Part shown: in pieces, positions 4,617-20,109 of the stretch | Layout of the letters: every line of letters starts with the position of its first letter | Numbering within the stretch: the first letter of the stretch is position 1 | Assembly (NCBI GenBank): GCA_936914845.1 | Contig: CAKZGE010000004.1 | Location: forward strand, 409,658-473,657 | Direction: 5' to 3' | From: an uncultured Chloracidobacterium sp. | Lineage (GTDB): Bacteria > Acidobacteriota > Blastocatellia > Pyrinomonadales > Pyrinomonadaceae | DNA: 64,000 bases | Notes under the pieces: model-generated | Database searches by the model: none | Told to the model about the DNA's origin: nothing | The model's input: only the letters and a program-made list of their open reading frames with translations | Position numbers and translations under genes: made by a program

Positions 4617-5291
4617 ATGAGCACAAACGGACAAGCTGCGGCTTTTTACGATCTGGAAGGAACATTGGTGAGCACAAATTTGGTGCATACGCTGGCCTTT
4701 TATGCCCGCCGGCAGCAGGGGTTGTGGCAAACGGCTAAAAAGAGCGTCGGAACCCTGGCTAAGCTGCCATTTTTTGGCGTGACCGATCTTTATTCGCGCA
4801 ATGTTTTCAACGAAGTGTTCTTTCGAAGCTATGAGGGCTTTTCACAGGACAGGCTGCGATATTTCAGCGAAGAGCTTTTCGAAGAGGTGCTTAAACCGGC
4901 GATCTTTCCCGGAACGGCTGAGCTGATCGCCCAAGGTAAAAAGATCGGCCAGCGGCAGGTTGTTTTGACAGGAGCATTGGATTTTACGATCGACCGGATG
5001 ATGGAATATCTGGGCATTGACGATTACGTGGCAAACCGGTTGGAATTTGTGAACGGATATGCGACGGGCCGCGTTTTGCCGCCGGTGATGGCCTCAGCGA
5101 CCAAGGCAAAATGGATCCGCGAATATGCGGAGCGGGAAGACATCAACCTTTCGGGTTCTTATGCATATTCTGACAGCATCTCAGACCTGCCGATGCTGTC
5201 GATAGTCGGCCATCCGGTTGCGGTATGTCCGGATTTTCGGCTGAAACAGACGGCATTGCAGCACGATTGGGCGGTTATCGATCTGAAATAA
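4617..5291 (+). CDS. HAD-IB family hydrolase (phosphoserine-phosphatase-like)
   Basis: 224 aa. Motif I (FYDLEGTLVST, DxxGT), HAD-IB cap and a C-terminal GDSxSD-like motif (YSDSISDLP). Confidence 0.7.
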   Translation: MSTNGQAAAFYDLEGTLVSTNLVHTLAFYARRQQGLWQTAKKSVGTLAKLPFFGVTDLYSRNVFNEVFFRSYEGFSQDRLRYFSEELFEEVLKPAIFPGTAELIAQGKKIGQRQVVLTGALDFTIDRMMEYLGIDDYVANRLEFVNGYATGRVLPPVMASATKAKWIREYAEREDINLSGSYAYSDSISDLPMLSIVGHPVAVCPDFRLKQTALQHDWAVIDLK

Positions 5292-6145: not shown

Positions 6146-6200
6146 TGTTTTCTGTGTTTTAAAGATTTTTACCACAGAATGCACAGACGAAGACACAGAC
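6146..6200. repeat. right flanking direct and inverted repeats of the GxxExxY cassette
   Basis: tctgtgttttctgtgttttaaag is a direct copy of 5618-5640. acagaatgcac is a direct copy of 5657-5667. cacagacgaagacacagac is an inverted copy of 5611-5623. Confidence 0.7.
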
Positions 6201-6234
6201 AGATATTGAAAACAAGAAGAAAGAACTTAAGATT

Positions 6235-7836
6235 ATGGCGCTACAGCTAAGAAAAAAGACGCACGAATCGATCGTGTACATCGACAAGGATTCCGCACCG
6301 CGGATAATGCCTTTTGGCGAGGATTTTATCCTGGAGGACATCCCGATCGGTACGCGCGTGATCTATCCGAATCCGCCGATAAAAGGGCTGCCGAACCGCG
6401 AAGCGGCGATCAGGTACGCGGTCAATCATCCGATCGAGATGGAGCCGCTGTATGCATTATTGGAACCGGGCATGCGGGTGACGATTGCGATGGACGACAT
6501 TTCGCTGCCGCTGCCGCCGATGGCGACGCCGGATATGCGGCAAACGATGCTGGAGGTCGTTTTGGATATGTGCGGGGCCAACGGTGTGGACGATATCCAC
6601 CTGATAATCGCCAATTCGCTTCATCGCAAAATGACCGCGTGGGAAATGAAGCGGATGGTCGGCGACGCCATTTTCAATGAATATTACCCGGAACGCTATT
6701 ACAACCATGACGCCGAAGACGACGAAAATCTGGTCACGCTCGGCCATACGCGGCATAACGAACCGCTGCGGGTGAACAAGCGGGCGATCGAAAGCGACCT
6801 GCTGATCTATCTGAACATCAATCTGGTGCCGATGGACGGCGGACATAAATCGGTGGCGGTCGGGTTGTGCGATTATGAATCGCTGCGGGCTCACCACGAA
6901 CCGCAGACGATCCGCGATTCGCATTCATACATGGATCCGCCGGCTTCCGCCCTTAATCACAAGGTCATCCGGCTCGGCAAATTGGTTGACGAAAATTGCA
7001 AGGTGTTTCATATCGAAACCGCTCTGAACAACAAAATGTTCAGCGACGGTTATGACATTTTGACGCGCAACGAGGACGAATTCTCATTTATGGACAGGAT
7101 GAAATGGGAAGCGATGAAACGCACGTTTTCGAAACTGCCGCGCGGAGCCCGCCGCAAAATGCTGCATGCGATACCGGCTCAATATGAGCTGATCGGATGT
7201 TTTGCCGGCCGAACCGAACCGGTGCATGAAAAGATCCTGGAGCTTAATTACCGCCAATATGAGATACCGGTAAAGGGGCAATGCGACATCATGATAACGG
7301 GCATTCCCGATATTTCGCCCTATAACGTCTATTCGGCTTTGAACCCGATATTGGTTCAGGTAATGGCGCTCGGTTACCACTTCAATATGTTTCGCAACAA
7401 GCCGCTTCTGCGAAAAGGCGGTGTGATGATCATCACGCATCCTTGCTTTGACGAATTCGATCACAAATTTCACCCGAGCTACATCGAATTTTTCCATCGT
7501 CTGCTGCCGGAATCGCGAGACGCTTTCTATTTGCGGGAAAAATATGAGCGCGAATTTGCAACAAACCCTGCATATGTCGAAATGTACCGCCGCGGTAACG
7601 CCTATCACGGCGCACATGCATTCTTTATGTGGTATTGGGGCGAAAATGGCCGTCAGCACGTCGGCAAAGTCATCGTCGCCGGTGCCGAAAATGCTCACGT
7701 TCCGGAAATATTGGGCTGGGAACGCGCCGATAATTTAACCGAAGCAATTGCAATGGCACGTTCATATATGGGCCGCAACGCCGAGATCACGATGCTGCAC
7801 CAACCGGTGATCGGGTTGTGTAATGTGACGGATTAA
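6235..7836 (+). CDS. LarA-like (DUF2088 / lactate-racemase family) protein, nickel-pincer-cofactor-dependent racemase/epimerase homolog
   Basis: 533 aa. N-terminal region resembles the LarA_N domain, with conserved His/Lys candidates ([16 protein letters not shown]). No larBCE genes lie nearby. Family call made from memory of motifs, so moderate. Confidence 0.5.
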
Positions 7837-7877
7837 ATAACTGGTCAGATGACTGGTCATCTTGATATAATTCAAAC

Positions 7878-8108
7878 ATGAAAAATAAGATCCGGACAAT
7901 AAGCGTAACGGAATTCAAGGCGAAATGCCTCAGTATTTTTGACCACCTCGACAGCAACGGGATAATCGTTGAAAAACGGGGCAAACCGGTCGCCAAAATT
8001 ATGCCGATAAAGGATGACGATTTCGAGATAATCGGCTGCTTGAAGGGAGAAATGGAAATACTGGGGGACATCATGTCGACGGGTATCAAATGGGATGCTG
8101 AATCTTGA
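7878..8108 (+). CDS. vapB: type II antitoxin (Phd/YefM / VapB-like)
   Basis: 76 aa. Small acidic protein overlapping the downstream PIN gene by 14 nt. Has the ISVTEFKAK... motif typical of Phd/YefM-type antitoxins. Confidence 0.7.
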   Translation: MKNKIRTISVTEFKAKCLSIFDHLDSNGIIVEKRGKPVAKIMPIKDDDFEIIGCLKGEMEILGDIMSTGIKWDAES

Positions 8109-8472
8109 CACACACATATTGTTGGCCACCGTCAACGACGAATTGAAGCGAGGAGAAGAGGATCTGATTCGTGGGGACGATCTCGCGATCTCGGATATCG
8201 TTTTGTGGGAGCTAGCAAAGCTTGTTCAACTAAATCGGATAAGACTGGACCTAGATAGCACGGTTTTTAGACGAGTTCTGAGACAGTTGACGGTGTTCCC
8301 AATAACGCTTGAGATCGCCCGTCAAAGCGCGGCATTAGACTTTCGATCCGATCCGGCGGACGAGATCATCGCCGCGACAAGTATTGTCGAGAGCATGCCG
8401 TTGCTCACGCGCGACCAAAAGATACTCGGGTCAAAGGTCGTCCCATTTGCAGGTGCAGAATTTGGGAATTAA
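8095..8472 (+). CDS. vapC: PIN-domain toxin
   Basis: 125 aa. Begins MLNLDTHILL (first PIN acidic residue), with conserved E and D positions. Overlaps the antitoxin gene. Confidence 0.75.
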   Translation: MLNLDTHILLATVNDELKRGEEDLIRGDDLAISDIVLWELAKLVQLNRIRLDLDSTVFRRVLRQLTVFPITLEIARQSAALDFRSDPADEIIAATSIVESMPLLTRDQKILGSKVVPFAGAEFGN

Positions 8473-8581
8473 ACGAACAAGATGCGAGTCGTTGAGCGTG
8501 AGAGATGCTTTGTGGCTGATAGATATTTGTCGATAAGTAAGTTGAAATCTGAAAAGCGAAAAGCAAGGTCGCAGAAACGAA

Positions 8582-9121
8582 ATGCACCACTCCGAGGTAG
8601 TTATGCAGCGAAGTAAAATCGAAGTTGTTCCGTACGATCCGGCGTGGCCGGAGAAGTTTCGGAAGGCGGCGGGAAAAGTTGAGGCTGTGTTGGGTGCAAA
8701 TTTGGTTGCGATCCATCACATCGGCAGCACGTCGATAGTCGGGATATATGCGAAGCCGGTGATCGACATGGTGATGGAGGTTGCGGATATTGATGAACTC
8801 GATGGGCGATCCGCTGATATGGAAGCGTTGGGTTATGAGGTGAAGGGTGAATTCGGCATTGCGGGACGACGTTACTTCAGACGCAACGATCCTGACGGCC
8901 GCCGGGCTCATCAGATACACGCGTTTGCCGCAGGTTCGCCGCCTGTTACGCGACATCTCGCATTTCGTGATTTTCTATTAGCGCATCCCGAATTCGCCGA
9001 ACATTACAGCGATCTGAAATGCCGGCTCGCCGAAGAGCATCCGTACGACATGAACGCCTACATGGACGGAAAGGACGGATTCATAAAAGATATGGAAGCG
9101 CGGGCGCTCCGATGGGCCTAG
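8582..9121 (+). CDS. GrpB family protein (UPF0157, nucleotidyltransferase-fold)
   Basis: 179 aa. EVVPYDPAWPEKF...HHIGSTS...AKPVIDM motifs characteristic of GrpB. Confidence 0.75.
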   Translation: MHHSEVVMQRSKIEVVPYDPAWPEKFRKAAGKVEAVLGANLVAIHHIGSTSIVGIYAKPVIDMVMEVADIDELDGRSADMEALGYEVKGEFGIAGRRYFRRNDPDGRRAHQIHAFAAGSPPVTRHLAFRDFLLAHPEFAEHYSDLKCRLAEEHPYDMNAYMDGKDGFIKDMEARALRWA

Positions 9122-9133
9122 TATTAAAAAATA

Positions 9134-10216
9134 GTGAGAGCGAAGATCTCAACCAAAAGTAAGAATGCTTCGGTTCAGTCCGGCGACGTTTTGTTCGATT
9201 ATATACGCGGATTGATAGAGCAGACGCGTGCCAGGGTAGCGAGCACGGTCAATTCGGCGCTCGTTTTGATGAATTGGCATATAGGTAAACGCATCAATGA
9301 CGAGATCTTGCAAAACAAGCGTGCCGAATACGGTGAACAGATTGTCGCGACACTGTCGCACCAATTAACAAGAGAATACGGGAAAGGTTTCACCAGAACG
9401 AATTTAATCAGAATGCGGTTATTTGCTGAATTTTTCCCTGATGTAGAAATTAGTGCGTCACTGTCGCACCAATTAAGCTGGTCGCATTTCGTCGAAATCC
9501 TAACAATTAAAGACCAGCTAAAACGCGACTTTTATGCGGAAATGTGTCGGATCGAGCGTTGGAGCGTTCGCACTCTGAGGCAAAGAATTCAGGGAATGCT
9601 TTTTGAGCGGACGGCGATCTCAAAGAAGCCGGAAGAGCTTATTAGAACCGAATTAGCCGAGCTGCGTGATGAAGATAAATTAACACCGGATCTGGTTTTT
9701 CGCGACACATATTTTCTTGATTTTCTCGGCTTTACCGATGCTTATAGCGAAAAAGATCTGGAAAACGCGATCCTCAGAGAACTTGAAAGGTTTCTGCTAG
9801 AACTTGGTGTCGGTTTCGCATTTGTCGCCCGGCAGAAACGGATCACGGTTGACGGCGACGATTTCTTTATCGATCTGCTGCTTTTTCACAGGGAACTGCG
9901 CAGGTTGGTCGTAATTGAATTAAAGCTAGGCAAATTTATGCCGGCTGATTTTGGGCAAACAGAGTTTTATCTGCGTTGGCTTGATAAATATGAACGCAAG
10001 CCTTGGGAAGAATCGCCGATCGGATTGATCTTGTGTTCTGAGAAGTCTAACGAACGAATTGAACTCTTGGCGCTCGACACACACGACATTAAGGTTGCGG
10101 ATTACTGGACACAGCTTCCCGATAAGAAATTGCTTGAAAAGAAACTGCACGAGGCCGTAATTATGGCTCACCGGTTGAGCGAAGCGAAAGCTGAGGACGT
10201 GAGCGGGGTTAAATAA
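9134..10216 (+). CDS. DUF1016 / YhcG-like PD-(D/E)XK nuclease-domain protein
   Basis: 360 aa. N-terminal helical region plus C-terminal ...FFIDLLLFHRELRRLVVIELKLGKF... core (D...ELK). Typical YhcG family architecture. Confidence 0.7.
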   Translation: MRAKISTKSKNASVQSGDVLFDYIRGLIEQTRARVASTVNSALVLMNWHIGKRINDEILQNKRAEYGEQIVATLSHQLTREYGKGFTRTNLIRMRLFAEFFPDVEISASLSHQLSWSHFVEILTIKDQLKRDFYAEMCRIERWSVRTLRQRIQGMLFERTAISKKPEELIRTELAELRDEDKLTPDLVFRDTYFLDFLGFTDAYSEKDLENAILRELERFLLELGVGFAFVARQKRITVDGDDFFIDLLLFHRELRRLVVIELKLGKFMPADFGQTEFYLRWLDKYERKPWEESPIGLILCSEKSNERIELLALDTHDIKVADYWTQLPDKKLLEKKLHEAVIMAHRLSEAKAEDVSGVK

Positions 10217-10271
10217 TTAATATGGTTGAGCCGCGGGCGGCGTTGCGGACAGAAGTGTCCGCGTTCCGATT

Positions 10272-13200
10272 ATGAAGTTATCACCAACAGAGATATTTAA
10301 GGGCAAGAAGATATTTTTTATCGGCGGGACGGGGTTTGTCGGAAAGGTCACGCTGTCGATGCTGCTGCATAATTTTCCGGATATTGGAAAGGTATATGCA
10401 ACGGTGCGGGCCCGCGATGCGAACGAATCGAAGATACGATTTTGGACGTCGATCGTGACTTCGCCGACCTTTGACCCGCTGCGCAAGAAATACGGCGATA
10501 AATTCGAAGATTTTATCCGGGAAAAGGTCGTGCCCGTCAATGGGGATGTAGGTAACGAATATCTTGGCCTTGAAGAAAAAGAGGCGAAAAAGATAATGAA
10601 GGACGTTGATGTGATCCTCAACGGTGCCGGCAACGTGACGTTCAATCCGCCGCTCGAATCAGCCCTGCGTACCAATGTGGTCGGTTCGAACAATATTATC
10701 AAGCTAGCGCGGATGATGAAAAAACCGCGGCTGGTACACGTTTCGACATGTTTTGTAGCGGGCAAGCGGAGCGGTGCGATCTGGGAAAACGAACCGGTCG
10801 TAGGGTATTTTCCGCGAAAGAACGAACTTGTCGGAACAACTTTTGATGTCAATCGCGAAGTGCAGGATTGTGCCCGATTGTCAGAACAAGCAAGGCAGGA
10901 AGCAGACGATGCCGTTCAGGCCGCAAAGTTTCGCGAGCAAGCACGCCAACGTTTTATCGAAGAAGGCCGCGACCCGGACGACGAAGGTGAACTGAAATCA
11001 GCGATCTTTCGTGAACGCAAAATGTGGGTCCGCGAACGGACGACCGAACTCGGAGCGGAGCGGGCGGAATATTGGGGCTGGACAAATATCTATACATATT
11101 CGAAATCGCTTGCGGAACAGATAATCGCATCGCAAGACGACATTGTTAAATCGCTTGTGCGCCCTTCGATCGTCGAATCTTCGCAATCCTATCCGTTTCC
11201 GGGTTGGAACGAGGGTTTCACCACCACTGCTCCGCTTATTTTGATCGCCCTTCGCGGGCAGCCGGTAATACCGGTCAATGAAAAGTTGATCCTGGACATC
11301 ATTCCGGTTGATATGGTTGCCGGAGCAACCCTGGCGGCGGTGATGAACGTTTTGGTCGATGATAACCCGCCGCTGGTGTTTCAGGCGTCGTCGGGCGATT
11401 CGAACCCGAACGATATGAAGCGTATCGTCGGCCTCGTCGGGTTGTACAAACGCCAGCATTTCGAAGAAAAAGAAACCGGCAACAAGCTGATGAACAAGTT
11501 TGCGGGTATGGTCGAGGCGACGCCCGTTAAACAGCGAACGTATGAATTGACCTCCGCACCGATGCTGAACAAGCTTGCCAAGCGGGCGGACGATCTGATG
11601 GACAAAGCGACGCCGCGTTGGGGAGGCGGGCGTATAGGAAACATCATTGCCGATCTAAAAAAATCGACCGAAAGCTTTAAGGAGGCAACACAAACGACCA
11701 TGGATGCGTTTTCGATGTTCAAGCCATTTATGATCGATAACGAATACCTTTATCGTTCTGACAATGTGCGGGCATTGCAGGCGATGGTCAAGGACAAGGA
11801 AAAGCCTCTGCTGCCGTGGTATCCGGAAAAGCTTGATTGGTACGACTATTGGCTGAACGTTCATTTTCCGGGAATGAGAAAATGGGTGCTGCCGACACTG
11901 GAAGAGGAACTCAAAACGCAAGAACGCCGTTCTTACACCTATAAGGATCTGATCGACCTGTTCGAAACGTCGGTCAAACGGTTCCCGACACGAGTTGCGA
12001 TGCGCATTGAACGAGGCGGCCGCCGCGAACAATATACCTTCGAAGATGTTCGCGAGCTGACATACCGTGTTGCCGGGTTTTTGGCAAAAAATGGAATACA
12101 GGCCGGCGAGCGCGTCATTCTTTTCTCAAACAATATGCCCGAATGGGGAATGTCGTATTTCGGTATCTTAAAGGCCGGAGCGACGGTGATCCCGATCGAC
12201 CCCGCCAGCACGGTTGCGGAAATAGTCAATTTTGCGAAGGCGGGCGAGGCTTCGGCGATACTTATTTCACCGAAATTGGCCGGCGAAAATCCGGATCTCG
12301 CTGATAAATTGGCGGATGCCGGCTTAGATGTAAAGGTTTGGAGTTTTGACGATGCATTCGTTATGCCGTCCGAAACCGAAGAATCAAAGCGTAACGCATT
12401 GCTGCCGGAAAAGATCGCTGCAAATTCGGTGGCGTCGCTGATCTTTACTTCGGGTACGACCGGTGTGCCGAAGGCGGTTATGCTTTCGCATAAGAATTTC
12501 GTGAATATGGTATCGATGCTGTCCAGCGTTTTGGATATGGACATTACAGACGGCGTTTTGTCTGTGTTGCCCATGCACCATACATTCGAATTCTCAGCGG
12601 GGTTTTTGACCCCTTTCTCGAATGGGACGCAGATAACATATCTAAACGAATTGACCGCCGAAGATCTTTCCCGCACGATCGAAACCGGCCATGTAACGGG
12701 TATGGTCGGTGTGCCGGCTTTGTGGGAAATGCTTCACCGCCGCATCAAGACGCGGCTTCGCGAGCGCGGAGACTGGATCGCTGATATGGCAGACAATGTC
12801 ATCGAATTCAATGCATGGATACGCGACAACACGCCGTTCAATCTGGGGCCGATCGTCTTTTTTCCGATCCATCAAGGCATGGGCGGCAAGATGCGCTATT
12901 TGATCTCCGGCGGCTCTGCACTTTCAGAAAAGATACAGAAAGATCTGCACGGACTTGGTTTTACGGTGCTCGAAGGTTACGGGTTGACCGAATCCTCGCC
13001 GGTATTGACGGTTTCGCGTCCGGGCAACAAGATGCTGAAAGGCAGTGTCGGCAAACCGCTGCCGGGTGTTGAGGTAAAGATCGATTCGCCGGATGAAAGC
13101 GGTGTGGGAGAAGTTTTGGCCCGCGGACAGAACATAATGCTCGGTTATTTCAATAACGAAGAAGCGACCGAAGCCGTGCTGCAGGACAGATGGCTGCGGA

Positions 13201-14693
13201 CGGGCGATCTGGGACGTATTGACGAGGACGGAAATCTCTTCATTGTCGGACGATCAAAAGACGTAATAATTGATTCGAACGGTAAAAATATCTATCCGGA
13301 CGAGATCGAAGACCATTATGGCAAATCGCCGCTGATCAAAGAGATGAGCGTTGTCGGATTGCCCGATGAGGACGGCGGTGAAAAGATCGCCGCACTGGTC
13401 GTGCCCGATTATGAATTCGATATCGCCCGCTCCCGTTCGGAGGTGAACCAGGACATTCAAAAGCATTTTCGCGAGATATCCGCTACGCTCCCGTTTTTCA
13501 AGCGAGTAAAGGTGGTGCACGTAACGCCATTTGAATTGCCGCGGACCGCAACACGTAAGGTAAAACGGCCCGAGGTGGTGGAAATGCTGCAGGCCCTTGA
13601 AGAACGGTCGAAAAAGAAGACCGACAAGGTAGTGCAGTCCAAGGGCGACGACAACCTTTTATGGATCAGAAAAATTGTGGCTAGTGTTTCAAGCCGGCCG
13701 CTTTCTGAGATCGCCATTGAAGATAAGCTGGTTGACCTTGGTTTTGATTCGCTGATGTTCGTCGAACTGCAGGCTGCGGTCGAAGATGCCGGCGGACGTG
13801 TGATCTCGCCGGACACTCTTAACGAAGTGCAGACGGTTCGAGAACTTTTGACCGCCTTGCAGCGGCTTGATAAGACCAAGAAATTGGCGGACGAACCCAA
13901 GGCTGAAGAACGGGACGAAGAACAAGACATCTATGTGCCCTCAATAGTGAGGAGGATCGGTAATTCGGTCGTTGATCTGGCGCAGGAAACATTGTACGAC
14001 CGGGTGCTTGATACACGCATTGAAGGGCAAGGAAATGTTCCGCAGCACGTCAATTTCATCGTGGCACCGAACCACGCTTCGCATATCGATACGGGGTTGG
14101 TCAAAAAAGCCCTTGGCGACGGCGTGGCGGAACAGACCGTTGCGGTCGCTGCTGCGGACTACTGGTTCGACACCAAATACAAGCGGGCGTATATGAACAA
14201 TTTTACGACGCTGGTCCCGATCGAACGGACGGGCAGTCTTCGGCAATCGCTGCGGCACGTAACGAAGATCCTGGACGAAGGTTACAACGCTCTGATATTT
14301 CCGGAAGGCACCCGCTCGACGGACGGTGAGATCCATGAATTCAAACCGATCATCGGATATCTGTCGCTAAATCAAAAGATCGGGATTCTGCCGATCTATA
14401 TCTGGGGGACATTCGAGGCTTATCCGAAAGGGATGACGATCCCGGCCCGTAAAAGCATTGGCGCACAGGTCGGAGCCCAGGTTGGCACTTTTCTGGAATA
14501 TGAAGAGCTTCGCGATATGGTCGAAGGTGTGCCAAACACGGAGGCATACAGGCTGATAGCCGCCCGCGTTCAGCACGAGATCGAAAATATGCGCGACGGC
14601 AAACGCGACAGATTCGATGTCGCGGCAATACGCAAAAGATGGCGAGCGGAACGGCGAAAAAGCCGGAAACAGGAACCCGTCATCGATGAATAA
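10272..14693 (+). CDS. multifunctional lipid enzyme, ElbD-like
   Basis: 1473 aa with four fused domains. N-terminal NAD-binding fatty-acyl reductase (male-sterility/NAD_binding_4 type): FFIGGTGFVGK Rossmann motif and YTYSK (YxxxK). AMP-dependent acyl ligase: LIFTSGTTGVPKAV, EGYGLTESS, GDLGRIDEDGNLFIVGRSKD. Carrier domain: LGFDSLMFVEL. C-terminal PlsC-type acyltransferase: NHASHID (HX4D) and FPEGTRS. Confidence 0.85.
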   Translation: MKLSPTEIFKGKKIFFIGGTGFVGKVTLSMLLHNFPDIGKVYATVRARDANESKIRFWTSIVTSPTFDPLRKKYGDKFEDFIREKVVPVNGDVGNEYLGLEEKEAKKIMKDVDVILNGAGNVTFNPPLESALRTNVVGSNNIIKLARMMKKPRLVHVSTCFVAGKRSGAIWENEPVVGYFPRKNELVGTTFDVNREVQDCARLSEQARQEADDAVQAAKFREQARQRFIEEGRDPDDEGELKSAIFRERKMWVRERTTELGAERAEYWGWTNIYTYSKSLAEQIIASQDDIVKSLVRPSIVESSQSYPFPGWNEGFTTTAPLILIALRGQPVIPVNEKLILDIIPVDMVAGATLAAVMNVLVDDNPPLVFQASSGDSNPNDMKRIVGLVGLYKRQHFEEKETGNKLMNKFAGMVEATPVKQRTYELTSAPMLNKLAKRADDLMDKATPRWGGGRIGNIIADLKKSTESFKEATQTTMDAFSMFKPFMIDNEYLYRSDNVRALQAMVKDKEKPLLPWYPEKLDWYDYWLNVHFPGMRKWVLPTLEEELKTQERRSYTYKDLIDLFETSVKRFPTRVAMRIERGGRREQYTFEDVRELTYRVAGFLAKNGIQAGERVILFSNNMPEWGMSYFGILKAGATVIPIDPASTVAEIVNFAKAGEASAILISPKLAGENPDLADKLADAGLDVKVWSFDDAFVMPSETEESKRNALLPEKIAANSVASLIFTSGTTGVPKAVMLSHKNFVNMVSMLSSVLDMDITDGVLSVLPMHHTFEFSAGFLTPFSNGTQITYLNELTAEDLSRTIETGHVTGMVGVPALWEMLHRRIKTRLRERGDWIADMADNVIEFNAWIRDNTPFNLGPIVFFPIHQGMGGKMRYLISGGSALSEKIQKDLHGLGFTVLEGYGLTESSPVLTVSRPGNKMLKGSVGKPLPGVEVKIDSPDESGVGEVLARGQNIMLGYFNNEEATEAVLQDRWLRTGDLGRIDEDGNLFIVGRSKDVIIDSNGKNIYPDEIEDHYGKSPLIKEMSVVGLPDEDGGEKIAALVVPDYEFDIARSRSEVNQDIQKHFREISATLPFFKRVKVVHVTPFELPRTATRKVKRPEVVEMLQALEERSKKKTDKVVQSKGDDNLLWIRKIVASVSSRPLSEIAIEDKLVDLGFDSLMFVELQAAVEDAGGRVISPDTLNEVQTVRELLTALQRLDKTKKLADEPKAEERDEEQDIYVPSIVRRIGNSVVDLAQETLYDRVLDTRIEGQGNVPQHVNFIVAPNHASHIDTGLVKKALGDGVAEQTVAVAAADYWFDTKYKRAYMNNFTTLVPIERTGSLRQSLRHVTKILDEGYNALIFPEGTRSTDGEIHEFKPIIGYLSLNQKIGILPIYIWGTFEAYPKGMTIPARKSIGAQVGAQVGTFLEYEELRDMVEGVPNTEAYRLIAARVQHEIENMRDGKRDRFDVAAIRKRWRAERRKSRKQEPVIDE

Positions 14694-14841
14694 AGAGGTA
14701 AAGAGAATTCAAAGCACCTAGATCAATTGCGACGACCGGCTCTTCAATTCACAAGCGGCGGTTTTGACCGCTCCGCACCAATGAAAAGGCTGGGTTACGA
14801 ACAGGTAGAAAGACATTTAGATACTTCGCGGAAAGAATAAT

Positions 14842-17673
14842 ATGACAACGAGGACATCAAGCTTTATTTTCGCCATCATTTGGTCGTTTTCGATCGGCTT
14901 TTCGGCTGTTTCGGGGCAAACGCCCTCGCCGGCCCCATCTTTTAAGGTCGAATACGAAAAGTTTACCTTGCCGAATGGGTTAACGGTGTTGTTTCATATC
15001 GACCGCAGCGATCCGGTCGTGGCCGTCTCGTTGACCGCTCATGTTGGTTCGGCCCGCGAAAAGGCCGGCCGCACCGGCTTTGCACATCTTTTTGAACATC
15101 TGCTGTTCCTAGAATCAGAGAATTTGGGCAAAGGCGGGTTGGACAAGTTGAGCGCCCAGATCGGCGGATCAGGAGCCAATGGATCTACCAACCGGGACCG
15201 GACGAATTACCTGCAGACGGTGCCGAACGATGCGCTTGAAAAAATGTTGTGGGCAGAGGCGGATAAGCTTGGCTGGTTCGTAAATACGGTCACCGATCCG
15301 GTGCTTGCCAAAGAGAAGCAAGTGGTCAAAAACGAAAAACGCCAAGGCGTGGACAACAATCCTTATGGCCACACGCAATATGTCATTGATAAGGCATTAT
15401 ACCCGGCCGGACATCCGTACAGCTGGCAGGTGATCGGTTCGCTGCAGGACCTTGATAATGCCACGGTCGAAGATGTGAAGGAATTTTACCGTCAATGGTA
15501 TGTGCCGAACAATGTGACCTTGACCGTGGCGGGTGATTTTGATCCGGTGCAGGCTAAAAAATGGGTCGAAAAATATTTTGGTGAAATAAAACGCGGCGGC
15601 GATGTCAAACTGCAGACGAAACAGCCGGCGGTCGTTAAGGAAACCGTCCGTTTTGTGCATGAAGACAACTACGCAAAATTGCCGGAACTCACGCTTGTGT
15701 GGCCCTCGGTGGCTCAGTACGATCCGGATGCCTATGCCCTGGATGTATTGACGCAATATCTGAGCGTTGGGAAAAAAGCCCCGCTCTATCAGGTGTTGGT
15801 CGAAGAAAAGCGATTGACGTCGAATGTTTCAATGTACAATTATTCGTCGGAATTGGCAGGTCAGACACAGCTTGAGGTACGGGCTTTTGACGGAACGCCA
15901 CTCGAAAATGTAAAGGCTGCGATCGACGAAGCTTTTGCAAGGTTTGAGAAGAACGGCATTTCGCAGAAGGACCTTGACCGCATAAAGGCCGGACAGGAAA
16001 CTCAATTTTACAACGGACTTTCGAGCGTATTGGGGAAAGGTGCCCAATTGACCCAGTGCAGTATGTTTGCCGGCGACCCGGGCTGTATCGAAAAAGAGAT
16101 CAACGGCATTTTGGCAGTAACACCGGGCGATGTGAACCGCGTTTACGAAAAATACATTAAAAATAGAAATTTTGTCGCGACGAGTTTTGTTCCGAAAGGG
16201 CAGGTTCAGCTGGCATTGAAGGATTCGAAAACAGCAGAGGTGGTCGTAGAACCGATCGTACAAGGAGCGGAAAAAGAGGTCGATCCGAATGTGAATGCCG
16301 AATATGAACGTACGCCATCGTCGTTCGACAGAAGCAAAGAGCCGCCATATGGACCGGCGCCAAAGGTCAGCGTTCCGGCCGTGTGGGTTCAGAAACTCAA
16401 GAACGGCATCGGTGTTTACGGGATCATGAACACGGAGGTGCCTGTTGTCTCATTCGAATTGTCGATAGACGGCGGTCAACGGCTCGAAACCCTCCAAAAG
16501 ACGGGCATTGCCAATTTAACGGCGCAGATGTTAATGGAAGGCACCAAGAACAAGACGCCGCAGGAACTTGAAGAGGCGATCGAACAGCTTGGAGCGAGTA
16601 TTAGTGTGAGGGCCGGTAAAGAAAGCCTGGTGTTGAGGGGCAATACACTTGCCCGAAATTTTCCGGCAACAATGGCTCTTGTGCAGGAGATACTTCTGGA
16701 GCCGCGCTGGGACGCCAAGGAATTTGATCTGGTCAAGGCCGCGACGGTCAGTGAATTGAAACAGCAAGCGGCGGTTCCGCGGTCTATCGCGCAGAATAAA
16801 TACGCCGAATTGATCTACGGCCGAGACAATATCTACTCAAAAAATACATTGGGCACGGTCGAATCAGTTTCAGCGGCAACGCTCGACGATCTAAAAGCGT
16901 TTTACGCGGCTGCCGTATCGCCATCGGTTGCCAGGTTGAATGTTGTCGGAGCTCTTGGGCAAAAAGATGTCGTGAAACCTTTGGCAGGACTGGTGAGAGC
17001 GTGGAAACCGAAGGCGGTCGTTATACCGGAGTTTAAGACGCCGCCGGCACCGGAGAGATCGGTCGTCTATTTTTACGATGTGCCGAATGCATCACAATCA
17101 GTGCTTCAGATAGGTTACCCGGCGATGGCGGAAACGGATAAGGATTTCTATCCGGCGAGCGTTGCGAATTACATACTCGGCGGCGGCGGGTTCGCATCAC
17201 GGCTAACCATGCAGCTTCGCGAAGGGAAAGGCTACACGTACGGTATTTTCTCGGGCTTTTCGGGCACAAAAACGGTCGGCCCGTTCACCGTTTCAAGCGG
17301 CGTTCGCAGCAACGTTACGCTGGAATCGGTCGAATTGATCAAAGACATATTGGAAAATTACGGTGAGACCTACACGGAAGACGACCTGGCGACGACAAAG
17401 GGCTTTCTGATCAAAAGCAACGCACGCGCATTCGAAACGGCAGGAGCGAAGTTGAATATTTTGGATGATATCAGCAATTACGGTTGGAAGCCGGATTTCG
17501 TGCTGGAGCGGGAAAAGATCGTCAATGGAATGACGGTGAAAGATATCCAGTCGCTTTCGGCAAAATATTTCAATCCTAATAAAATGTATTGGCTGGTGGT
17601 GGGTGATGCAAAGACACAATTGCCCCGGCTGAAAGAACTAGGATTTGGCGAACCGATCCTCTTAAATAAATAA
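14842..17673 (+). CDS. secreted M16 family zinc peptidase (two tandem M16 units; pitrilysin/insulinase-like)
   Basis: 943 aa. Signal peptide. HLFEHLLF (HxxEH inverted zinc motif) in the first half, and a second inactive-like M16 unit. Length fits fused M16B/M16C proteins. Confidence 0.8.
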   Translation: MTTRTSSFIFAIIWSFSIGFSAVSGQTPSPAPSFKVEYEKFTLPNGLTVLFHIDRSDPVVAVSLTAHVGSAREKAGRTGFAHLFEHLLFLESENLGKGGLDKLSAQIGGSGANGSTNRDRTNYLQTVPNDALEKMLWAEADKLGWFVNTVTDPVLAKEKQVVKNEKRQGVDNNPYGHTQYVIDKALYPAGHPYSWQVIGSLQDLDNATVEDVKEFYRQWYVPNNVTLTVAGDFDPVQAKKWVEKYFGEIKRGGDVKLQTKQPAVVKETVRFVHEDNYAKLPELTLVWPSVAQYDPDAYALDVLTQYLSVGKKAPLYQVLVEEKRLTSNVSMYNYSSELAGQTQLEVRAFDGTPLENVKAAIDEAFARFEKNGISQKDLDRIKAGQETQFYNGLSSVLGKGAQLTQCSMFAGDPGCIEKEINGILAVTPGDVNRVYEKYIKNRNFVATSFVPKGQVQLALKDSKTAEVVVEPIVQGAEKEVDPNVNAEYERTPSSFDRSKEPPYGPAPKVSVPAVWVQKLKNGIGVYGIMNTEVPVVSFELSIDGGQRLETLQKTGIANLTAQMLMEGTKNKTPQELEEAIEQLGASISVRAGKESLVLRGNTLARNFPATMALVQEILLEPRWDAKEFDLVKAATVSELKQQAAVPRSIAQNKYAELIYGRDNIYSKNTLGTVESVSAATLDDLKAFYAAAVSPSVARLNVVGALGQKDVVKPLAGLVRAWKPKAVVIPEFKTPPAPERSVVYFYDVPNASQSVLQIGYPAMAETDKDFYPASVANYILGGGGFASRLTMQLREGKGYTYGIFSGFSGTKTVGPFTVSSGVRSNVTLESVELIKDILENYGETYTEDDLATTKGFLIKSNARAFETAGAKLNILDDISNYGWKPDFVLEREKIVNGMTVKDIQSLSAKYFNPNKMYWLVVGDAKTQLPRLKELGFGEPILLNK

Positions 17674-17683
17674 CGGAATAGAT

Positions 17684-19072
17684 ATGAGACCTGTAAATCA
17701 ATATGCTGTCGCATTATGTGTAGCGGTGATCCTTTTGGGGGTTTTGGTTGGCCGCGGCCAAACTGTGACAAAAACGGATCGCGAAAAACTGGCAAGCGAG
17801 GTAAAAGTAGAGTTTCTGCACGCGTGGAACGGTTATAAGAAATATGCCTGGGGCAATGATGACCTAGCACCGCTCAGCAAAGGGCATCACAATTGGTATG
17901 CAGAACCGCTTTTGATGACGCCGGTGGATGCATTGGATACGATGTATCTGATGGGCGAAAAGGCAGAAGCCGATGCGACCCGGGAATATATTGTTAAAGA
18001 GCTGAGATTTGATAAGGATCTTGATGTCCAAAATTTTGAGATCACTATCCGTTTGTTGGGCGGGCTCCTGTCGGCCTATCAGATCAGCGGCGATGAAAAG
18101 CTCTTGAAACTCGCAGAAGATCTAGGCACGCGGCTGCTGCCGGTGTTCGATTCGCCTACCGGTTTGCCATATAAAAATGTAAATCTGGTCACGGGTAAAA
18201 CCAGCGGGGCAGTAACAAACCCGGCGGAAACGGGCACGCTTTTGATCGAATTCGGCACACTCGCAAAATTGACGAACAAACCGATCTTTTACGAGAAAGC
18301 GAAGCGGGCATTGACGGAAACGTTCAAGCGACGTTCAAAGATCGGGCTGGTGGGAACGCGAATAAATGTCGAGACCGGCGAATGGGTCAATAAGGAAAGC
18401 CATATTAGCGCCGAGATCGATTCGTATTATGAATATTTGCTGAAATGTTCCATCTTGTTCGGCGACAAAGATTGCCGAAAGATGTGGGACGTATCGATCA
18501 AGCCGGTCAACAGATATTTGGCGGACAATGTTGGCGAGGAATTGTGGTACGGTTACGCAGACATGGAAACAGGCAAGCGGACGGCGTCCACCTATGGGGC
18601 TTTGGACGCATTTTTCCCCGGTGTGCTGGCATTGGCCGGAGACCTGAAACGGGCGGAGCGGCTGCAAACATCTTCGTTTAAGATGTGGAATCTACACGGC
18701 ATTGAGCCGGAAGTGCTTAATTACCGGACGATGAAGGTCGAACACGCCGGATATCCGCTGCGGCCGGAAATAATTGAATCAACGTATATTTTGTATCATT
18801 ACACTAAGGACCCGAAATATTTGGCAATGGGCGAAAAAATGTGGCGGGATTTTGTGAAGTATTGCCGCACGGAAGCGGGCTATGCGGCATTGAAAAGTGT
18901 GGTGACAAAAGAAAAGAGAGATTCGATGCAAAGCTTTGTGCTGGCCGAAACATTTAAATATTTTTACCTGCTTTTTGCGACAAAGCCGCCTTTGGAGTTT
19001 GATAAGGTGGTGTTCAATACGGAAGCTCATCCGATCCGCCGCACATGGAATGTTAAAATGGCGGGCAAATAA
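17684..19072 (+). CDS. glycoside hydrolase family 47 (class I alpha-1,2-mannosidase-like)
   Basis: 462 aa. Signal peptide. WNGYKKYAWGNDDLAPLS and FEITIRLLGGLLSAYQISGD closely match GH47 signatures (FETxIRxLGGLLSAY). Begins 11 nt after the M16 gene. Confidence 0.75.
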   Translation: MRPVNQYAVALCVAVILLGVLVGRGQTVTKTDREKLASEVKVEFLHAWNGYKKYAWGNDDLAPLSKGHHNWYAEPLLMTPVDALDTMYLMGEKAEADATREYIVKELRFDKDLDVQNFEITIRLLGGLLSAYQISGDEKLLKLAEDLGTRLLPVFDSPTGLPYKNVNLVTGKTSGAVTNPAETGTLLIEFGTLAKLTNKPIFYEKAKRALTETFKRRSKIGLVGTRINVETGEWVNKESHISAEIDSYYEYLLKCSILFGDKDCRKMWDVSIKPVNRYLADNVGEELWYGYADMETGKRTASTYGALDAFFPGVLALAGDLKRAERLQTSSFKMWNLHGIEPEVLNYRTMKVEHAGYPLRPEIIESTYILYHYTKDPKYLAMGEKMWRDFVKYCRTEAGYAALKSVVTKEKRDSMQSFVLAETFKYFYLLFATKPPLEFDKVVFNTEAHPIRRTWNVKMAGK

Positions 19073-19077
19073 AGATC

Positions 19078-20109
19078 ATGGCCAAGAAAAAAGCAACCGA
19101 AACAGAGAAAAAGATCCTGATAACCGGCGGAACCGGCTTTTTGGGGGCAGAGGTCGTTCGGCAACTGATCGATGCGGGCGAAACTAACATCAAGGTTTTG
19201 GCGTCCCGCGTGCCGGAATGGATGAAAGATGCGGGCATTAAGGCCGTCGAGGGTTCGGTAACGGACCCGGAAACGGTCGAAAAGGCGGTCAAAAATGTTT
19301 CGGCGATCTTCCATCTTGCCGGCAAGGTTTCGAGAAATAACGACGATGCTGCCGACATGAACGGTGTTCATTTGGAGGGTACACGGGTTCTTTGCGAAGC
19401 CGCGTCCGAAGCCGGCGTGGGCACGATCGTGCTTGCGTCTTCGAGCGGAACGATCGCTGTGTCTGAAACGCCGGAGATGTTCGACGAAACGTTTCCGCCG
19501 CCTGTCGATATCATCACAAAATGGGCGTACTACGCATCCAAATACTATCAGGAGCGGGCGGCGCTTGAGAATTTCGATGGCAAAGGCCGCCGCTTGGTCA
19601 TTATGAACCCGTCATTGCTGCTCGGCCCGGGCGATGACCGATTGAGTTCGACGAAGGTCGTCCTCGATTTTCTCGGGCGAAAAATTCCGTATGTGCCCGG
19701 CGGCGGACTTAATTTTGTAGATGTGCGCGACGCGGCGGCGGCATTCATCACGGCTTTAGAAAAAGGGGAACATCAACAAAAATATCTGCTTGGTGCCGTG
19801 AATATGCCATTTGCAGAATTTCTCGGACGGTTGGAAAGATTGTCCGGCGTTTCAGCACCGATGCTGAAAGTTCCGAAGAAAATTGCGGCTGCCGGCGCCG
19901 GGATCATCGATTCGGTGTTTCGAAACTGGGGAAAAACTTCACCTGTTCAGCCGAAAGAAGTGGAACAGGCGGAATATTTTTGGTATTTCGATCCGTCAAG
20001 GGCTGTTGAAGAACTAGGGTTCACATCTCGTGATCCTCAGGAAACGCTTCAAGACACTGTCGCATACATACGCACGACCTTTCTGGGCGGCGGTATCTTC
20101 TCAAAATAG
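19078..20109 (+). CDS. NAD-dependent epimerase/dehydratase (extended SDR family)
   Basis: 343 aa. ILITGGTGFLGAEVVRQL Rossmann motif and YxxxK (YYASKYY). Begins 6 nt after the GH47 gene. Confidence 0.75.
   Translation: MAKKKATETEKKILITGGTGFLGAEVVRQLIDAGETNIKVLASRVPEWMKDAGIKAVEGSVTDPETVEKAVKNVSAIFHLAGKVSRNNDDAADMNGVHLEGTRVLCEAASEAGVGTIVLASSSGTIAVSETPEMFDETFPPPVDIITKWAYYASKYYQERAALENFDGKGRRLVIMNPSLLLGPGDDRLSSTKVVLDFLGRKIPYVPGGGLNFVDVRDAAAAFITALEKGEHQQKYLLGAVNMPFAEFLGRLERLSGVSAPMLKVPKKIAAAGAGIIDSVFRNWGKTSPVQPKEVEQAEYFWYFDPSRAVEELGFTSRDPQETLQDTVAYIRTTFLGGGIFSK

What the first reader, a model, noticed from the sequence alone, without database searches (positions are those of the whole stretch)
10272..14693. 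Four-domain reductase / acyl-AMP ligase / ACP / PlsC-acyltransferase megaenzyme (ElbD-like ether-lipid enzyme)
A single 1473-aa ORF fuses four activities:
- an N-terminal NAD_binding_4-type fatty-acyl reductase (GGTGFVGK, YTYSK);
- an AMP-dependent acyl ligase (TSGTTGVPKAV);
- a phosphopantetheine carrier (GFDSLMF);
- a lysophospholipid/glycerol-3-phosphate acyltransferase (NHASHID, FPEGTRS).
This is the domain inventory of the multifunctional ElbD enzyme that Myxococcus uses for alkyl/vinyl ether lipid biosynthesis, although I am not certain the domain order matches. Acidobacteria (notably subdivision 4) are known to make ether-linked iso-diabolic acid lipids.
No AGPS/ElbB-like gene is adjacent. 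The downstream M16 peptidase, GH47 and SDR genes are only about 150 bp away and could be unrelated.
The protein could equally be a fatty-alcohol/wax-type pathway condensed into one polypeptide.
Basis: partly seen in the sequence, partly recalled or inferred. Interest (0 to 1): 0.7.

Follow-up and report, generated by a model that had tools for sequence, protein, structure and literature searches.

The report
ElbD ether-lipid enzyme in an acidobacterium
This 1473-residue gene is a clear counterpart of ElbD, the four-domain enzyme that Myxococcus needs to make ether-linked membrane lipids, and it sits in a scattered copy of the same gene cluster in a subdivision-4 acidobacterium, a group where this cluster has already been reported.

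Summary
Window 10272-14693 (+) is one intact 1473-aa ORF. It holds a FAR-type reductase, a long-chain acyl-AMP/CoA ligase, a carrier domain and a PlsC-type acyltransferase, in that order, and the motifs checked in all four domains are intact.

It aligns end to end with the characterised M. xanthus ElbD (ABF88003.1): 45% identity, 2% gaps, same domain order.

- elbB (HAD-IB phosphatase), 4617-5291, 46% identical.
- elbC, 6235-7836, 60% identical.
- elbE (SDR), 19078-20109, 45% identical.

They are separated by unrelated genes: a PD-(D/E)XK gene, a Phd/PIN toxin-antitoxin pair, GrpB, a YhcG nuclease, an M16 peptidase and GH47. These differ between related Pyrinomonadaceae contigs.

No AGPS-type gene is in the window. 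ElbB is not AGPS-like.

The elb cluster in subdivision-4 Acidobacteria is already published, so the finding is correct but not new.

One side result may be unreported. ElbC, called "unknown function" in the ether-lipid reviews read, is a LarA-family (nickel-pincer cofactor) protein. It co-occurs with FAR, HAD and PlsC genes across phyla.

The parts
10272..14693 (+). elbD homologue: 1473-aa FAR - acyl ligase - ACP - PlsC acyltransferase fusion protein
   Evidence: ORF. Pfam domains. 45% identity end to end with M. xanthus ElbD ABF88003.1 and with Corallococcus interemptor ElbD.
10323..11327 (+). ElbD domain 1: FAR-type NAD(P)H reductase (aa 18-352; GGTGFVG at 18, YTYSK at 274), with an insertion of about 80 aa within roughly aa 185-265
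   Evidence: PF07993, E 2.6e-52. Best solved relative is 7eoz 'Fatty acyl-CoA reductase', E 1.9e-50. Motifs. The motif RPxxxES....P..GW..G is found in most full-length homologues.
11667..11891 (+). ElbD 'Sterile'-like FAR C-terminal region (aa 466-540)
   Evidence: PF03015, 32.9 bits, just under the 35.4 cut-off. The same weak hit occurs in Corallococcus and M. xanthus ElbD.
11961..13559 (+). ElbD domain 2: long-chain acyl-AMP/CoA ligase (aa 564-1096; TSGTTGVPK at 726, GYGLTE at 902, GRSKD at 993, Lys1096)
   Evidence: PF00501, E 6.8e-75, and PF13193. The NCBIfam best hits are long-chain-fatty-acid-CoA ligases, all below their cut-offs. Motifs.
13662..13856 (+). ElbD domain 3: acyl carrier domain (aa 1131-1195; Ser1160 of the GFDSL motif)
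   Evidence: PF00550, E 1.2e-12. The DS of the DSL motif is conserved in at least 90% of a 42-sequence family alignment.
14016..14405 (+). ElbD domain 4: PlsC/GNPAT-type acyltransferase (aa 1249-1378; H1268-x4-D1273, FPEGTR at 1343)
   Evidence: PF01553, E 1.4e-17. NHxSHxD and PEGTR are conserved across the family.
4617..5291 (+). elbB homologue: HAD-IB family phosphohydrolase, 224 aa
   Evidence: PF12710, E 9.9e-32. TIGR01490, 117 bits against a cut-off of 98. 46% identical to MxElbB, reciprocal best hit. 90-97% identical in two related contigs whose flanking genes are only 57-78% identical.
6235..7836 (+). elbC homologue: LarA-superfamily (Lar_N / DUF2088) protein, 533 aa, LarAH14/15/16 family
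   Evidence: PF09861. NF052592, 803 bits against a cut-off of 740. 60% identical to MxElbC. The M. xanthus-type locus carries a Lar_N gene between the HAD gene and ElbD. His130, Asn194, Lys203 and His221 are conserved.
19078..20109 (+). elbE homologue: extended SDR (NAD-dependent epimerase / 3-beta-HSD type), 343 aa
   Evidence: PF01370, E 1.3e-30. 45% identical to MxElbE but 28% to MxElbA. An ElbE-type SDR lies directly downstream of ElbD in 14 of 16 informative loci from other phyla.

Best explanation
The ORF is the counterpart of ElbD, the multifunctional enzyme of the myxobacterial ether-lipid (elb) pathway. It lies in a Pyrinomonadaceae-type (Acidobacteriota, Blastocatellia, subdivision 4) genome. 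It belongs to a dispersed elbB-elbC-elbD-elbE set in the Myxococcus order and orientation, with unrelated, strain-variable genes inserted between the members.

Proposed mechanism:

1. The ligase domain adenylates a long-chain fatty acid (probably iso-C15:0 or a related chain) and loads it as a thioester on the phosphopantetheine of its own carrier domain (Ser1160). For M. xanthus ElbD the ACS and ACP activities were confirmed in vitro, according to a review of the original study. Here the step is inferred from the conserved motifs.

2. The N-terminal FAR-type domain reduces the thioester with NAD(P)H to the fatty aldehyde or alcohol. This is inferred and has not been shown for any ElbD.

3. 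The C-terminal PlsC/GNPAT-type domain transfers an acyl chain to glycerol-3-phosphate, DHAP or a lyso-lipid. This is also inferred; no activity was detected in vitro for M. xanthus ElbD.

4. The ether bond is then made together with the partner proteins and without an AGPS encoded nearby. The partners are ElbE (an SDR, genetically implicated in M. xanthus), ElbC (LarA-type) and ElbB (a phosphatase). This step is inferred and is the least certain.

The expected product is 1-O-alkyl glycerolipid, the class of ether lipid reported for subdivision-4 Acidobacteria.
For: Architecture: all four domains are present in the ElbD order. That order is described in PMC9131029 and verified on M. xanthus and Corallococcus ElbD.

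Direct alignment to ABF88003.1, which PMC11868695 names as ElbD: 653/1455 identical, 64% positives, 2% gaps, residues 2-1444 against 6-1443.

Subclade: among 42 cluster representatives, the window protein is the second-best match of Corallococcus ElbD.

Catalytic motifs are conserved in a 42-sequence family alignment.

Reciprocal best hits to MxElbB (46%), MxElbC (60%) and MxElbE (45%) lie in the same order and on the same strand. The M. xanthus-type locus reads Epimerase-HAD-Lar_N-ElbD-Epimerase.

The same backbone is seen in four other Pyrinomonadaceae-type contigs. One of them (L128) has no SDR after GH47.

HAD, LarAH and ElbD are 85-97% identical between contigs whose flanking genes are only 57-78% identical. 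This indicates strong purifying selection.

Taxonomy: the closest homologues are named Pyrinomonadaceae, Blastocatellia and Chloracidobacterium.

Literature: elbD disruption strongly reduces alkyl and vinyl ether lipids in M. xanthus (PMC9131029). The elb cluster has been detected in subdivision-4 Acidobacteria, which make alkyl glycerol ethers (PMC13159169; PMC10087280; bioRxiv 10.64898/2026.06.23.733905).
Against: - No lipid data exist for this organism.
- The role of elb genes in acidobacterial ether lipids 'has not been conclusively demonstrated' (PMC11868695).
- Pontiella species carry elbD homologues, yet no ether lipids were detected in them (same paper).
- The reductase and acyltransferase activities have never been shown for any ElbD.
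- The cluster here is not a compact operon, so co-regulation is unproven. The promoter/terminator scan gave nothing above chance.
- 45% identity leaves room for a different substrate or product.
Confidence: 0.8

Rival explanations
1. A self-contained fatty-alcohol or wax-ester route. The ligase, carrier and reductase make a fatty alcohol and the acyltransferase esterifies it, with no role in ether lipids.
For: The N-terminal domain is a FAR-type reductase. Its best solved relative is a fatty acyl-CoA reductase. Marinobacter-type FAR genes were picked up by the same FAR DNA motif (L061).
Against: No Pfam hit other than those listed, and so no wax-synthase/DGAT-family hit, was returned for the window ORFs scanned. 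The acyltransferase is of the PlsC/GNPAT glycerol-phosphate type, not the WS/DGAT type. The protein is a collinear homologue of ElbD and keeps the elbB/C/E partners. Fatty alcohols were not detected in the M. xanthus work.
Confidence: 0.07
2. An Aas-like phospholipid repair or remodelling enzyme. It would activate free fatty acids on its own carrier domain and re-acylate lysophospholipids, with the reductase domain accessory or inactive.
For: The ligase-carrier-PlsC part resembles acyl-[ACP]-phospholipid O-acyltransferase (NF006386, E 3.8e-63).
Against: The score is 213.7 bits against a cut-off of 1221. By my own knowledge of Aas, not checked here, its domain order is the reverse (acyltransferase first). 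The FAR domain keeps its Rossmann motif and YxxxK motif and is conserved across the family. In split versions of the system, FAR is retained while the ligase and carrier are lost.
Confidence: 0.06
3. An NRPS/PKS-like module that makes a specialised lipid metabolite or signal rather than a bulk membrane lipid.
For: antiSMASH/MIBiG treat the elb cluster as a biosynthetic gene cluster (BGC0000871). Adenylation-carrier-reductase logic is typical of NRPS-like enzymes, and gramicidin synthase appears among the PDB hits.
Against: There are no condensation, KS or thioesterase domains. The reductase is N-terminal and FAR-type, not a terminal thioester reductase. Identity is very high (85-90%) across more than 100 Pyrinomonadaceae sequence clusters, and conservation exceeds that of neighbouring housekeeping genes. 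This fits a core membrane function better than an accessory metabolite.
Confidence: 0.05

Closest known systems
Myxococcus xanthus ElbD (MXAN_1528, ABF88003.1, UniProt Q1DC43) and the elbA-E operon
   Same: Same four domains in the same order and nearly the same length (1473 against 1470 aa). 45% identity end to end. The motifs checked are conserved across the family alignment. Homologues of ElbB, ElbC and ElbE are present in the same order and orientation.
   Different: The M. xanthus genes are contiguous, with overlapping or closely abutting reading frames. Here they are spread over 15.5 kb with eight unrelated genes in between. No ElbA homologue is in the window. The host is an acidobacterium. 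No CarF/PEDS1 desaturase was looked for, so alkyl rather than vinyl ethers are expected.
elb clusters previously reported in subdivision-4 Acidobacteria (Sinninghe Damste et al. 2018, as cited in PMC13159169, PMC10087280 and bioRxiv 10.64898/2026.06.23.733905)
   Same: Same phylum and subdivision and the same gene set. This window is another instance of it. The nearest database proteins are 85-100% identical and named Pyrinomonadaceae or Blastocatellia.
   Different: I could not read the 2018 paper itself. I therefore cannot say whether it noted the interspersed, strain-variable genes or the LarA nature of ElbC.
Eukaryotic / myxobacterial FAR + GNPAT (FARAT, MXAN_1675) + AGPS plasmalogen pathway
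   Same: It uses a FAR-type reductase and a GNPAT/PlsC-type acyltransferase, fused in one polypeptide as in FARAT (PMC13012113).
   Different: ElbD additionally carries an acyl ligase and a carrier domain between the two. No AGPS is encoded in the window. The partner proteins (HAD, LarA-type, SDR) are different.
Carboxylic acid reductases and NRPS-like A-T-R enzymes
   Same: The logic is the same: adenylation, then a carrier thioester, then NAD(P)H reduction.
   Different: The reductase is N-terminal and of the FAR/'male sterility' type with a Sterile-like extension. A PlsC domain follows the carrier domain.

Membership tests
ElbD (multifunctional ether-lipid enzyme, M. xanthus MXAN_1528) | Four domains in the order FAR reductase - acyl ligase - ACP - PlsC/AGPAT-type acyltransferase | tested here: met
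   Pfam on the window protein. The same result was obtained on Corallococcus ElbD and in the precomputed domains of M. xanthus ElbD. The order is described in PMC9131029.
ElbD (multifunctional ether-lipid enzyme, M. xanthus MXAN_1528) | Full-length collinear sequence similarity to the characterised protein | tested here: met
   BLASTP against ABF88003.1: 45% identity, 64% positives, 2% gaps, residues 2-1444 against 6-1443. The window protein is the second-closest of 42 cluster representatives to Corallococcus ElbD.
ElbD (multifunctional ether-lipid enzyme, M. xanthus MXAN_1528) | Intact catalytic motifs in every domain (Rossmann + YxxxK; A3/A5/A8/A10; DSL serine; HX4D + PEGTR) | tested here: met
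   Motif positions. Conservation in the 42-sequence alignment.
ElbD (multifunctional ether-lipid enzyme, M. xanthus MXAN_1528) | Genomic association with elbB (HAD), elbC and elbE (SDR) | tested here: met
   Reciprocal best hits at 4617-5291, 6235-7836 and 19078-20109, in the same order and on the same strand. The genes are not contiguous; eight unrelated genes are interposed.
ElbD (multifunctional ether-lipid enzyme, M. xanthus MXAN_1528) | Gene required for alkyl/vinyl ether lipid formation; ACS and ACP loading activity in vitro | not testable with these tools
   Known only for M. xanthus (Lorenzen 2014, as reviewed in PMC9131029).
ElbD (multifunctional ether-lipid enzyme, M. xanthus MXAN_1528) | [quoted passage not shown] | not testable with these tools
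   Reported for subdivision-4 Acidobacteria in general. The source organism of this window is unknown beyond a Pyrinomonadaceae-like affiliation.
AGPS-dependent (eukaryote-type) ether-lipid pathway | Alkyl-DHAP synthase gene (FAD_binding_4 / FAD-oxidase_C) nearby | tested here: not met
   No such Pfam family was reported for the window ORFs scanned across all 64 kb. Presence elsewhere in the genome could not be tested.
Aas-type acyl-[ACP]-phospholipid O-acyltransferase | Match to NF006386 above its cut-off | tested here: not met
   213.7 bits against a cut-off of 1221. The domain order of Aas itself (acyltransferase first, by my own knowledge) was not checked here.
NRPS-like carboxylic acid reductase | C-terminal thioester-reductase domain after A-T, and no acyltransferase | tested here: not met
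   The reductase is N-terminal, NAD_binding_4 plus Sterile type, and a PlsC domain is C-terminal.
LarA superfamily (for the elbC homologue at 6235-7836) | Match to a curated LarA-homologue model; conserved catalytic His, cofactor-tethering Lys and Ni-binding His | tested here: met
   NF052592 'LarAH14/15/16', 803 bits against 740. Best PDB hits are the LarA-like enzymes 9q2u and 9q3j. His130, Lys203 and His221 are conserved. The second catalytic His is absent and a conserved Asn194 lies nearby.
LarA superfamily (for the elbC homologue at 6235-7836) | Genome encodes the cofactor-biosynthesis genes larB, larC and larE | not testable with these tools
   No hit to the Pfam families I would expect for LarB, LarC or LarE appeared among the window ORFs. 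The rest of the genome is not available.

The most novel reading that the evidence does not exclude
The conserved core of the system may be FAR + HAD phosphatase + a LarA-type nickel-pincer enzyme (ElbC) + a PlsC acyltransferase, rather than ElbD alone.

ElbC is called 'unknown function' in the two ether-lipid papers read. It is the most conserved elb protein between Acidobacteria and Myxococcus (60%). It meets the curated LarAH14/15/16 model, a group for which no substrate was found when LarAH14 was tested. It also travels with FAR, HAD and PlsC genes in Actinomycetota and Dormibacterota, where FAR and HAD are even fused and the ligase and carrier domains are missing.

A LarA-type hidden-redox hydride shuttle acting at C2 of the glycerol phosphate backbone could replace the flavoenzyme AGPS in ether-bond formation. 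If so, bacterial alkyl-ether lipids (including precursors of branched tetraether lipids) would depend on nickel.
Probability: 0.2. Interest if true: 0.75.

Novelty: already known. Interest (0 to 1): 0.3.

Why it matters
Ether-linked bacterial lipids of Acidobacteria are discussed as precursors of the branched tetraether lipids used as palaeoclimate proxies. Which enzymes make their ether bonds is still unsettled. This locus adds no new kind of enzyme. It is one more, very well conserved, copy of the elb system in the group where that system was already reported.

Its value is practical:
- It gives exact coordinates and intact motifs for all four core genes.
- It shows that the cluster tolerates insertions without losing order.
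- It points to ElbC, a LarA-family protein, as an overlooked candidate for the missing ether-bond chemistry.

Tried and rejected
1. Finding M. xanthus ElbD by guessing among 50%-identity cluster representatives. I used amino-acid composition, cluster-member names and neighbourhood look-ups. None was myxococcal. These look-ups still showed recurring neighbours: HAD, Lar_N, DAGK_cat and an M16 peptidase. The route that worked had three steps:
   - a GC-biased DNA pattern for the FAR motif, scanned in genome contigs;
   - a protein search with Corallococcus ElbD as query;
   - a cluster-member look-up.

2. The promoter/terminator scan of 4400-20300 gave 17 promoter-like and 17 terminator-like sites against 17.4 and 20.7 expected. 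It says nothing about transcription units.

3. NCBIfam on ElbD gave only generic ligase models, all below their cut-offs. No ElbD-specific model turned up.

4. AGPS, wax synthase and NPN-biosynthesis genes: no hit to those families appeared among the window ORFs scanned.

5. M16 peptidase and GH47 as cluster members: rejected as core members. M16 is missing in L002 and GH47 is missing in L129. Neither appeared next to ElbD in the 120 loci. The one exception is an M16 gene beside a distant ElbD in L006, which remains unexplained.

6. A LarAH-acyltransferase fusion in Actinomadura was suspected from the ORF list but rejected. The two parts are in different reading frames, so they are adjacent, overlapping genes.

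Full report
**Observation**

Window 10272-14693 (+) is a single uninterrupted ORF of 1473 aa with an ATG start. Pfam finds the following:
- NAD_binding_4, aa 18-352, E 2.6e-52.
- A sub-threshold 'Sterile' FAR C-terminal region, aa 466-540.
- AMP-binding, aa 564-960, E 6.8e-75, with AMP-binding_C, aa 1011-1096.
- PP-binding, aa 1131-1195.
- A PlsC-type Acyltransferase domain, aa 1249-1378.

These are GGTGFVG at 18, YTYSK at 274, TSGTTGVPK at 726, GFDSL at 1157 (Ser1160), HASHID at 1268 and FPEGTR at 1343. GYGLTE at 902, GRSKD at 993 and the A10-type lysine (Lys1096) are also present. The order is reductase - ligase - carrier - acyltransferase.

**Who has it**

A search of 5.8 billion proteins returned more than 120 sequence clusters at 85-100% identity. 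Nearly all are 1473 aa long. They are named only 'AMP-binding protein' or 'long-chain acyl-CoA synthetase', from Pyrinomonadaceae, Blastocatellia or 'Chloracidobacterium' MAGs. Pyrinomonadaceae belong to Acidobacteriota, class Blastocatellia, which I take to be the subdivision 4 of the older literature.

At 50% clustering, about 60 clusters keep roughly the full length (1300-1800 aa) at 29-52% identity. They fall into two clades. Invariant motifs occur in all four domains.

**Direct test against the characterised enzyme**

A review describes M. xanthus ElbD as an N-terminal FAR1-like domain followed by ACS, ACP and an AGPAT-like acyltransferase. It is encoded in elbA-E with ElbA and ElbE as NAD-dependent epimerase-family proteins, ElbB as a HAD-like phosphohydrolase and ElbC as unknown (PMC9131029; PMC13012113).

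I recovered myxobacterial loci with a GC-biased DNA pattern for the FAR motif RPxxxES....P..GW..G. I then reached ABF88003.1 through a protein search and a cluster look-up. PMC11868695 uses that accession as its ElbD query.

The window protein aligns with ABF88003.1 over residues 2-1444 at 45% identity, 64% positives and 2% gaps. It aligns equally well with Corallococcus interemptor ElbD, which has the same Pfam architecture. Among 42 cluster representatives, the window protein is the second-best match of the Corallococcus enzyme. It therefore lies in the same subclade as the characterised protein.

**The surroundings: a scattered elb cluster**

A contig carrying a gene whose product is identical to M. 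xanthus DK1622 ElbD reads Epimerase - HAD - Lar_N - ElbD - Epimerase, tightly packed. BLAST in both directions between those proteins and the window gave these reciprocal best hits:

| M. xanthus protein | Window coordinates | Identity |
|---|---|---|
| ElbB | 4617-5291 | 46% |
| ElbC | 6235-7836 | 60% |
| ElbD | 10272-14693 | 45% |
| ElbE | 19078-20109 | 45% (only 28% to ElbA) |

All four window genes are on the + strand and in the Myxococcus order.

Unrelated genes lie between them:
- a PD-(D/E)XK gene, 5695-6120;
- a Phd/YefM antitoxin (7878-8108) with a PIN toxin (8095-8472);
- GrpB, 8582-9121;
- a YhcG/DUF1016 nuclease, 9134-10216;
- an M16 peptidase, 14842-17673;
- GH47, 17684-19072.

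Four other Pyrinomonadaceae-type contigs keep the same backbone but fill the gaps differently. Their gaps hold M28 peptidase, other toxin-antitoxin pairs, GT2 plus ABC transporter genes, a methyltransferase, Imm27, or nothing. M16 is absent in one contig, GH47 is absent in another, and the SDR is missing after GH47 in a third.

Some inserted genes have atypical composition: PD-(D/E)XK 39% GC, YhcG 46% and the antitoxin 45%, against about 52% for the elb genes.

HAD, LarAH and ElbD are 90-97%, 91-95% and 85-86% identical between contigs whose flanking housekeeping genes are only 57-78% identical. The elb genes are therefore under unusually strong constraint.

ElbB is a HAD phosphatase, not an AGPS. 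No hit to an AGPS-type family appeared among the ORFs scanned across the 64-kb window.

**How it most likely works**

What is established in the literature, for M. xanthus only:
- elbD disruption strongly lowers alkyl and vinyl ether lipids.
- elbE inactivation also lowers them.
- The ligase and carrier activities were confirmed in vitro.
- Reductase and acyltransferase activities were not demonstrated.

What I infer for this protein:
1. The ligase domain activates a long-chain fatty acid and loads it on Ser1160 of the carrier domain. By my own reading of its motifs, the domain resembles long-chain acyl-CoA synthetases.
2. The FAR-type domain reduces the thioester to aldehyde or alcohol. Its best solved relative is a fatty acyl-CoA reductase.
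3. The PlsC/GNPAT-type domain acylates the glycerol-phosphate backbone.
4. Ether-bond formation needs the partner proteins, because no AGPS is at hand.

I put 0.8 on the statement that this is an ElbD counterpart acting in alkyl-ether lipid synthesis. The individual chemical steps are much less certain.

**Rivals**

- A wax or fatty-alcohol route. No wax-synthase hit was returned, and the acyltransferase is of the glycerol-phosphate type.
- An Aas-like re-acylation enzyme. NF006386 scores 214 bits against a cut-off of 1221, and the FAR domain is conserved.
- An NRPS-like secondary-metabolite module. There are no condensation or thioesterase domains, and conservation exceeds that of the neighbouring housekeeping genes.

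Each is weakly supported.

**Comparison with what is known, and novelty**

[quoted passage not shown] ElbD homologues in subdivision 4 are cited again in a 2026 preprint. The role of these genes in acidobacterial ether lipids is still called unproven (PMC11868695). So the finding is correct and well founded, but already known as a kind. This window is another instance of it.

**Side result worth recording**

The elbC homologue is a LarA-superfamily protein:
- It has a Pfam Lar_N domain.
- It matches the NCBIfam equivalog 'NPN-dependent hydroxyacid isomerase, LarAH14/15/16 family' at 803 bits against a cut-off of 740.
- Its closest solved structures are the single-histidine LarA-like enzymes 9q2u and 9q3j (PMC12611868).
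- The catalytic His130, the Lys of GGHK (Lys203) and the Ni-binding His221 are conserved, and a conserved Asn194 lies near the position of the missing second histidine.

LarAH14 showed no activity on the substrates tested (PMC7583248).

In the held library, no paper combined 'ElbC' or 'ether lipid' with lactate racemase or nickel-pincer terms. The only ElbC-relevant hit for MXAN_1529, DUF2088 or elbC was the review that calls ElbC unknown.

Across 120 high-GC loci carrying the FAR motif:
- 14 loci with a multidomain ElbD show LarAH directly upstream.
- 14 of 16 informative loci have an ElbE-type SDR directly downstream.
- 80 loci, mostly Actinomycetota and Dormibacterota, have a split version. 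It consists of a FAR-only gene, HAD directly downstream (57 of 65 informative loci), LarAH further downstream (18 of 23) and often a separate PlsC acyltransferase. These loci lack the ligase and carrier domains.

In Actinomadura sp. KC345, FAR and HAD are fused in one 765-aa ORF and a Zn-dependent alcohol dehydrogenase sits before LarAH. A Zn-ADH also sits immediately upstream of LarAH in a distant ElbD locus (L004).

This gene-fusion and co-occurrence pattern suggests that FAR, HAD, LarAH and the acyltransferase act together. That a nickel-pincer hydride shuttle replaces AGPS chemistry is my speculation, not a result.

**Limits**

- I could not read Lorenzen 2014 or Sinninghe Damste 2018 directly.
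- I could not search the rest of the source genome for agps, larBCE, tes or carF.
- Promoter and terminator scanning was uninformative.

Noticed in passing
window 6235-7836 (+); L130 5382-6992; L117 23-1633: ElbC, called 'unknown function' in ether-lipid reviews, is a LarA-superfamily protein. It matches NCBIfam LarAH14/15/16 above the cut-off, and its closest PDB entries are the single-histidine LarA-like enzymes 9q2u and 9q3j. At 60% it is the most conserved elb protein between Acidobacteria and Myxococcus. No paper in the searchable library links ElbC or ether lipids with LarA or nickel-pincer terms.
   Followed up: partly
L009, L046, L063, L077, L079, L122 and about 70 further loci: Actinomycetota and Dormibacterota carry a split version of the system: a FAR-only gene, HAD directly downstream (fused to FAR in Actinomadura sp. 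KC345, L063 1416-3713), a Zn-dependent alcohol dehydrogenase, LarAH and a separate PlsC acyltransferase. There are no acyl-ligase or carrier domains.
   Followed up: partly
window 5292-6234, 7837-10271 and 14694-19077, compared with L001, L002, L128 and L129: The gaps between elb genes act as variable slots. Five related Pyrinomonadaceae-type contigs keep the elb gene order and strand but hold different cargo: PD-(D/E)XK, M28 peptidase, toxin-antitoxin pairs, GT2 plus ABC transporter genes, a methyltransferase, Imm27, GrpB and YhcG. The window's PD-(D/E)XK gene has 39% GC against 52% for the elb genes.
   Followed up: partly
window 7878-8108 (+) and 8095-8472 (+): A Phd/YefM antitoxin (34.2 bits against a cut-off of 29.8) overlaps a PIN-domain toxin gene by 14 nt. 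This is a type II toxin-antitoxin pair inserted between elbC and elbD.
   Followed up: partly
window 14842-17673 (+) and 17684-19072 (+); L006 1080-3797: A double M16 peptidase and a GH47 (class I alpha-mannosidase family) gene sit between elbD and elbE, 10 and 5 nt from their downstream neighbours. Each is missing in one related contig. An M16 gene also abuts a distant (34% identical) ElbD in L006. This recurrence is unexplained.
   Followed up: partly
L003 6931-8004, L004 18462-19364, L007 6767-7678: A diacylglycerol-kinase-type gene (DAGK_cat/YegS_C) lies close to ElbD in three distant lineages, next to it in L003 and L007 and about 6 kb downstream in L004. This is another recurrent lipid-metabolism partner. 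It is absent from the window.
   Followed up: no
window 49559-54649 (+): A RecA-like gene (239 aa), a 432-aa ORF without a Pfam hit, and a 1040-aa DNA polymerase III alpha-type gene lie in a row. This looks like an imuA-imuB-dnaE2 mutagenesis cassette; that reading rests on my own knowledge and was not tested.
   Followed up: no
window 27777-41085 (-): A polysaccharide-utilisation-like block: two heparinase II/III-like proteins, two esterases (BD-FAE and AXE1), a CarboxypepD_reg + OMP beta-barrel protein of 1133 aa, an SDR, an MFS transporter and a LacI-type regulator.
   Followed up: no
window 55368-58182: A Fic-domain protein (55368-56882), a weak RHS-repeat fragment (57339-57737, -) and a SUKH-1/SMI1-KNR4 immunity-type protein (57745-58182, -). 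Together they suggest a polymorphic-toxin/immunity remnant.
   Followed up: no
window 60937-63705 (-): An Acyl_transf_3 membrane acyltransferase (643 aa) and a CDP-alcohol phosphatidyltransferase (237 aa, E 9.7e-43). The latter is a phospholipid head-group enzyme lying 48 kb from elbD. No link to the elb genes was examined.
   Followed up: no
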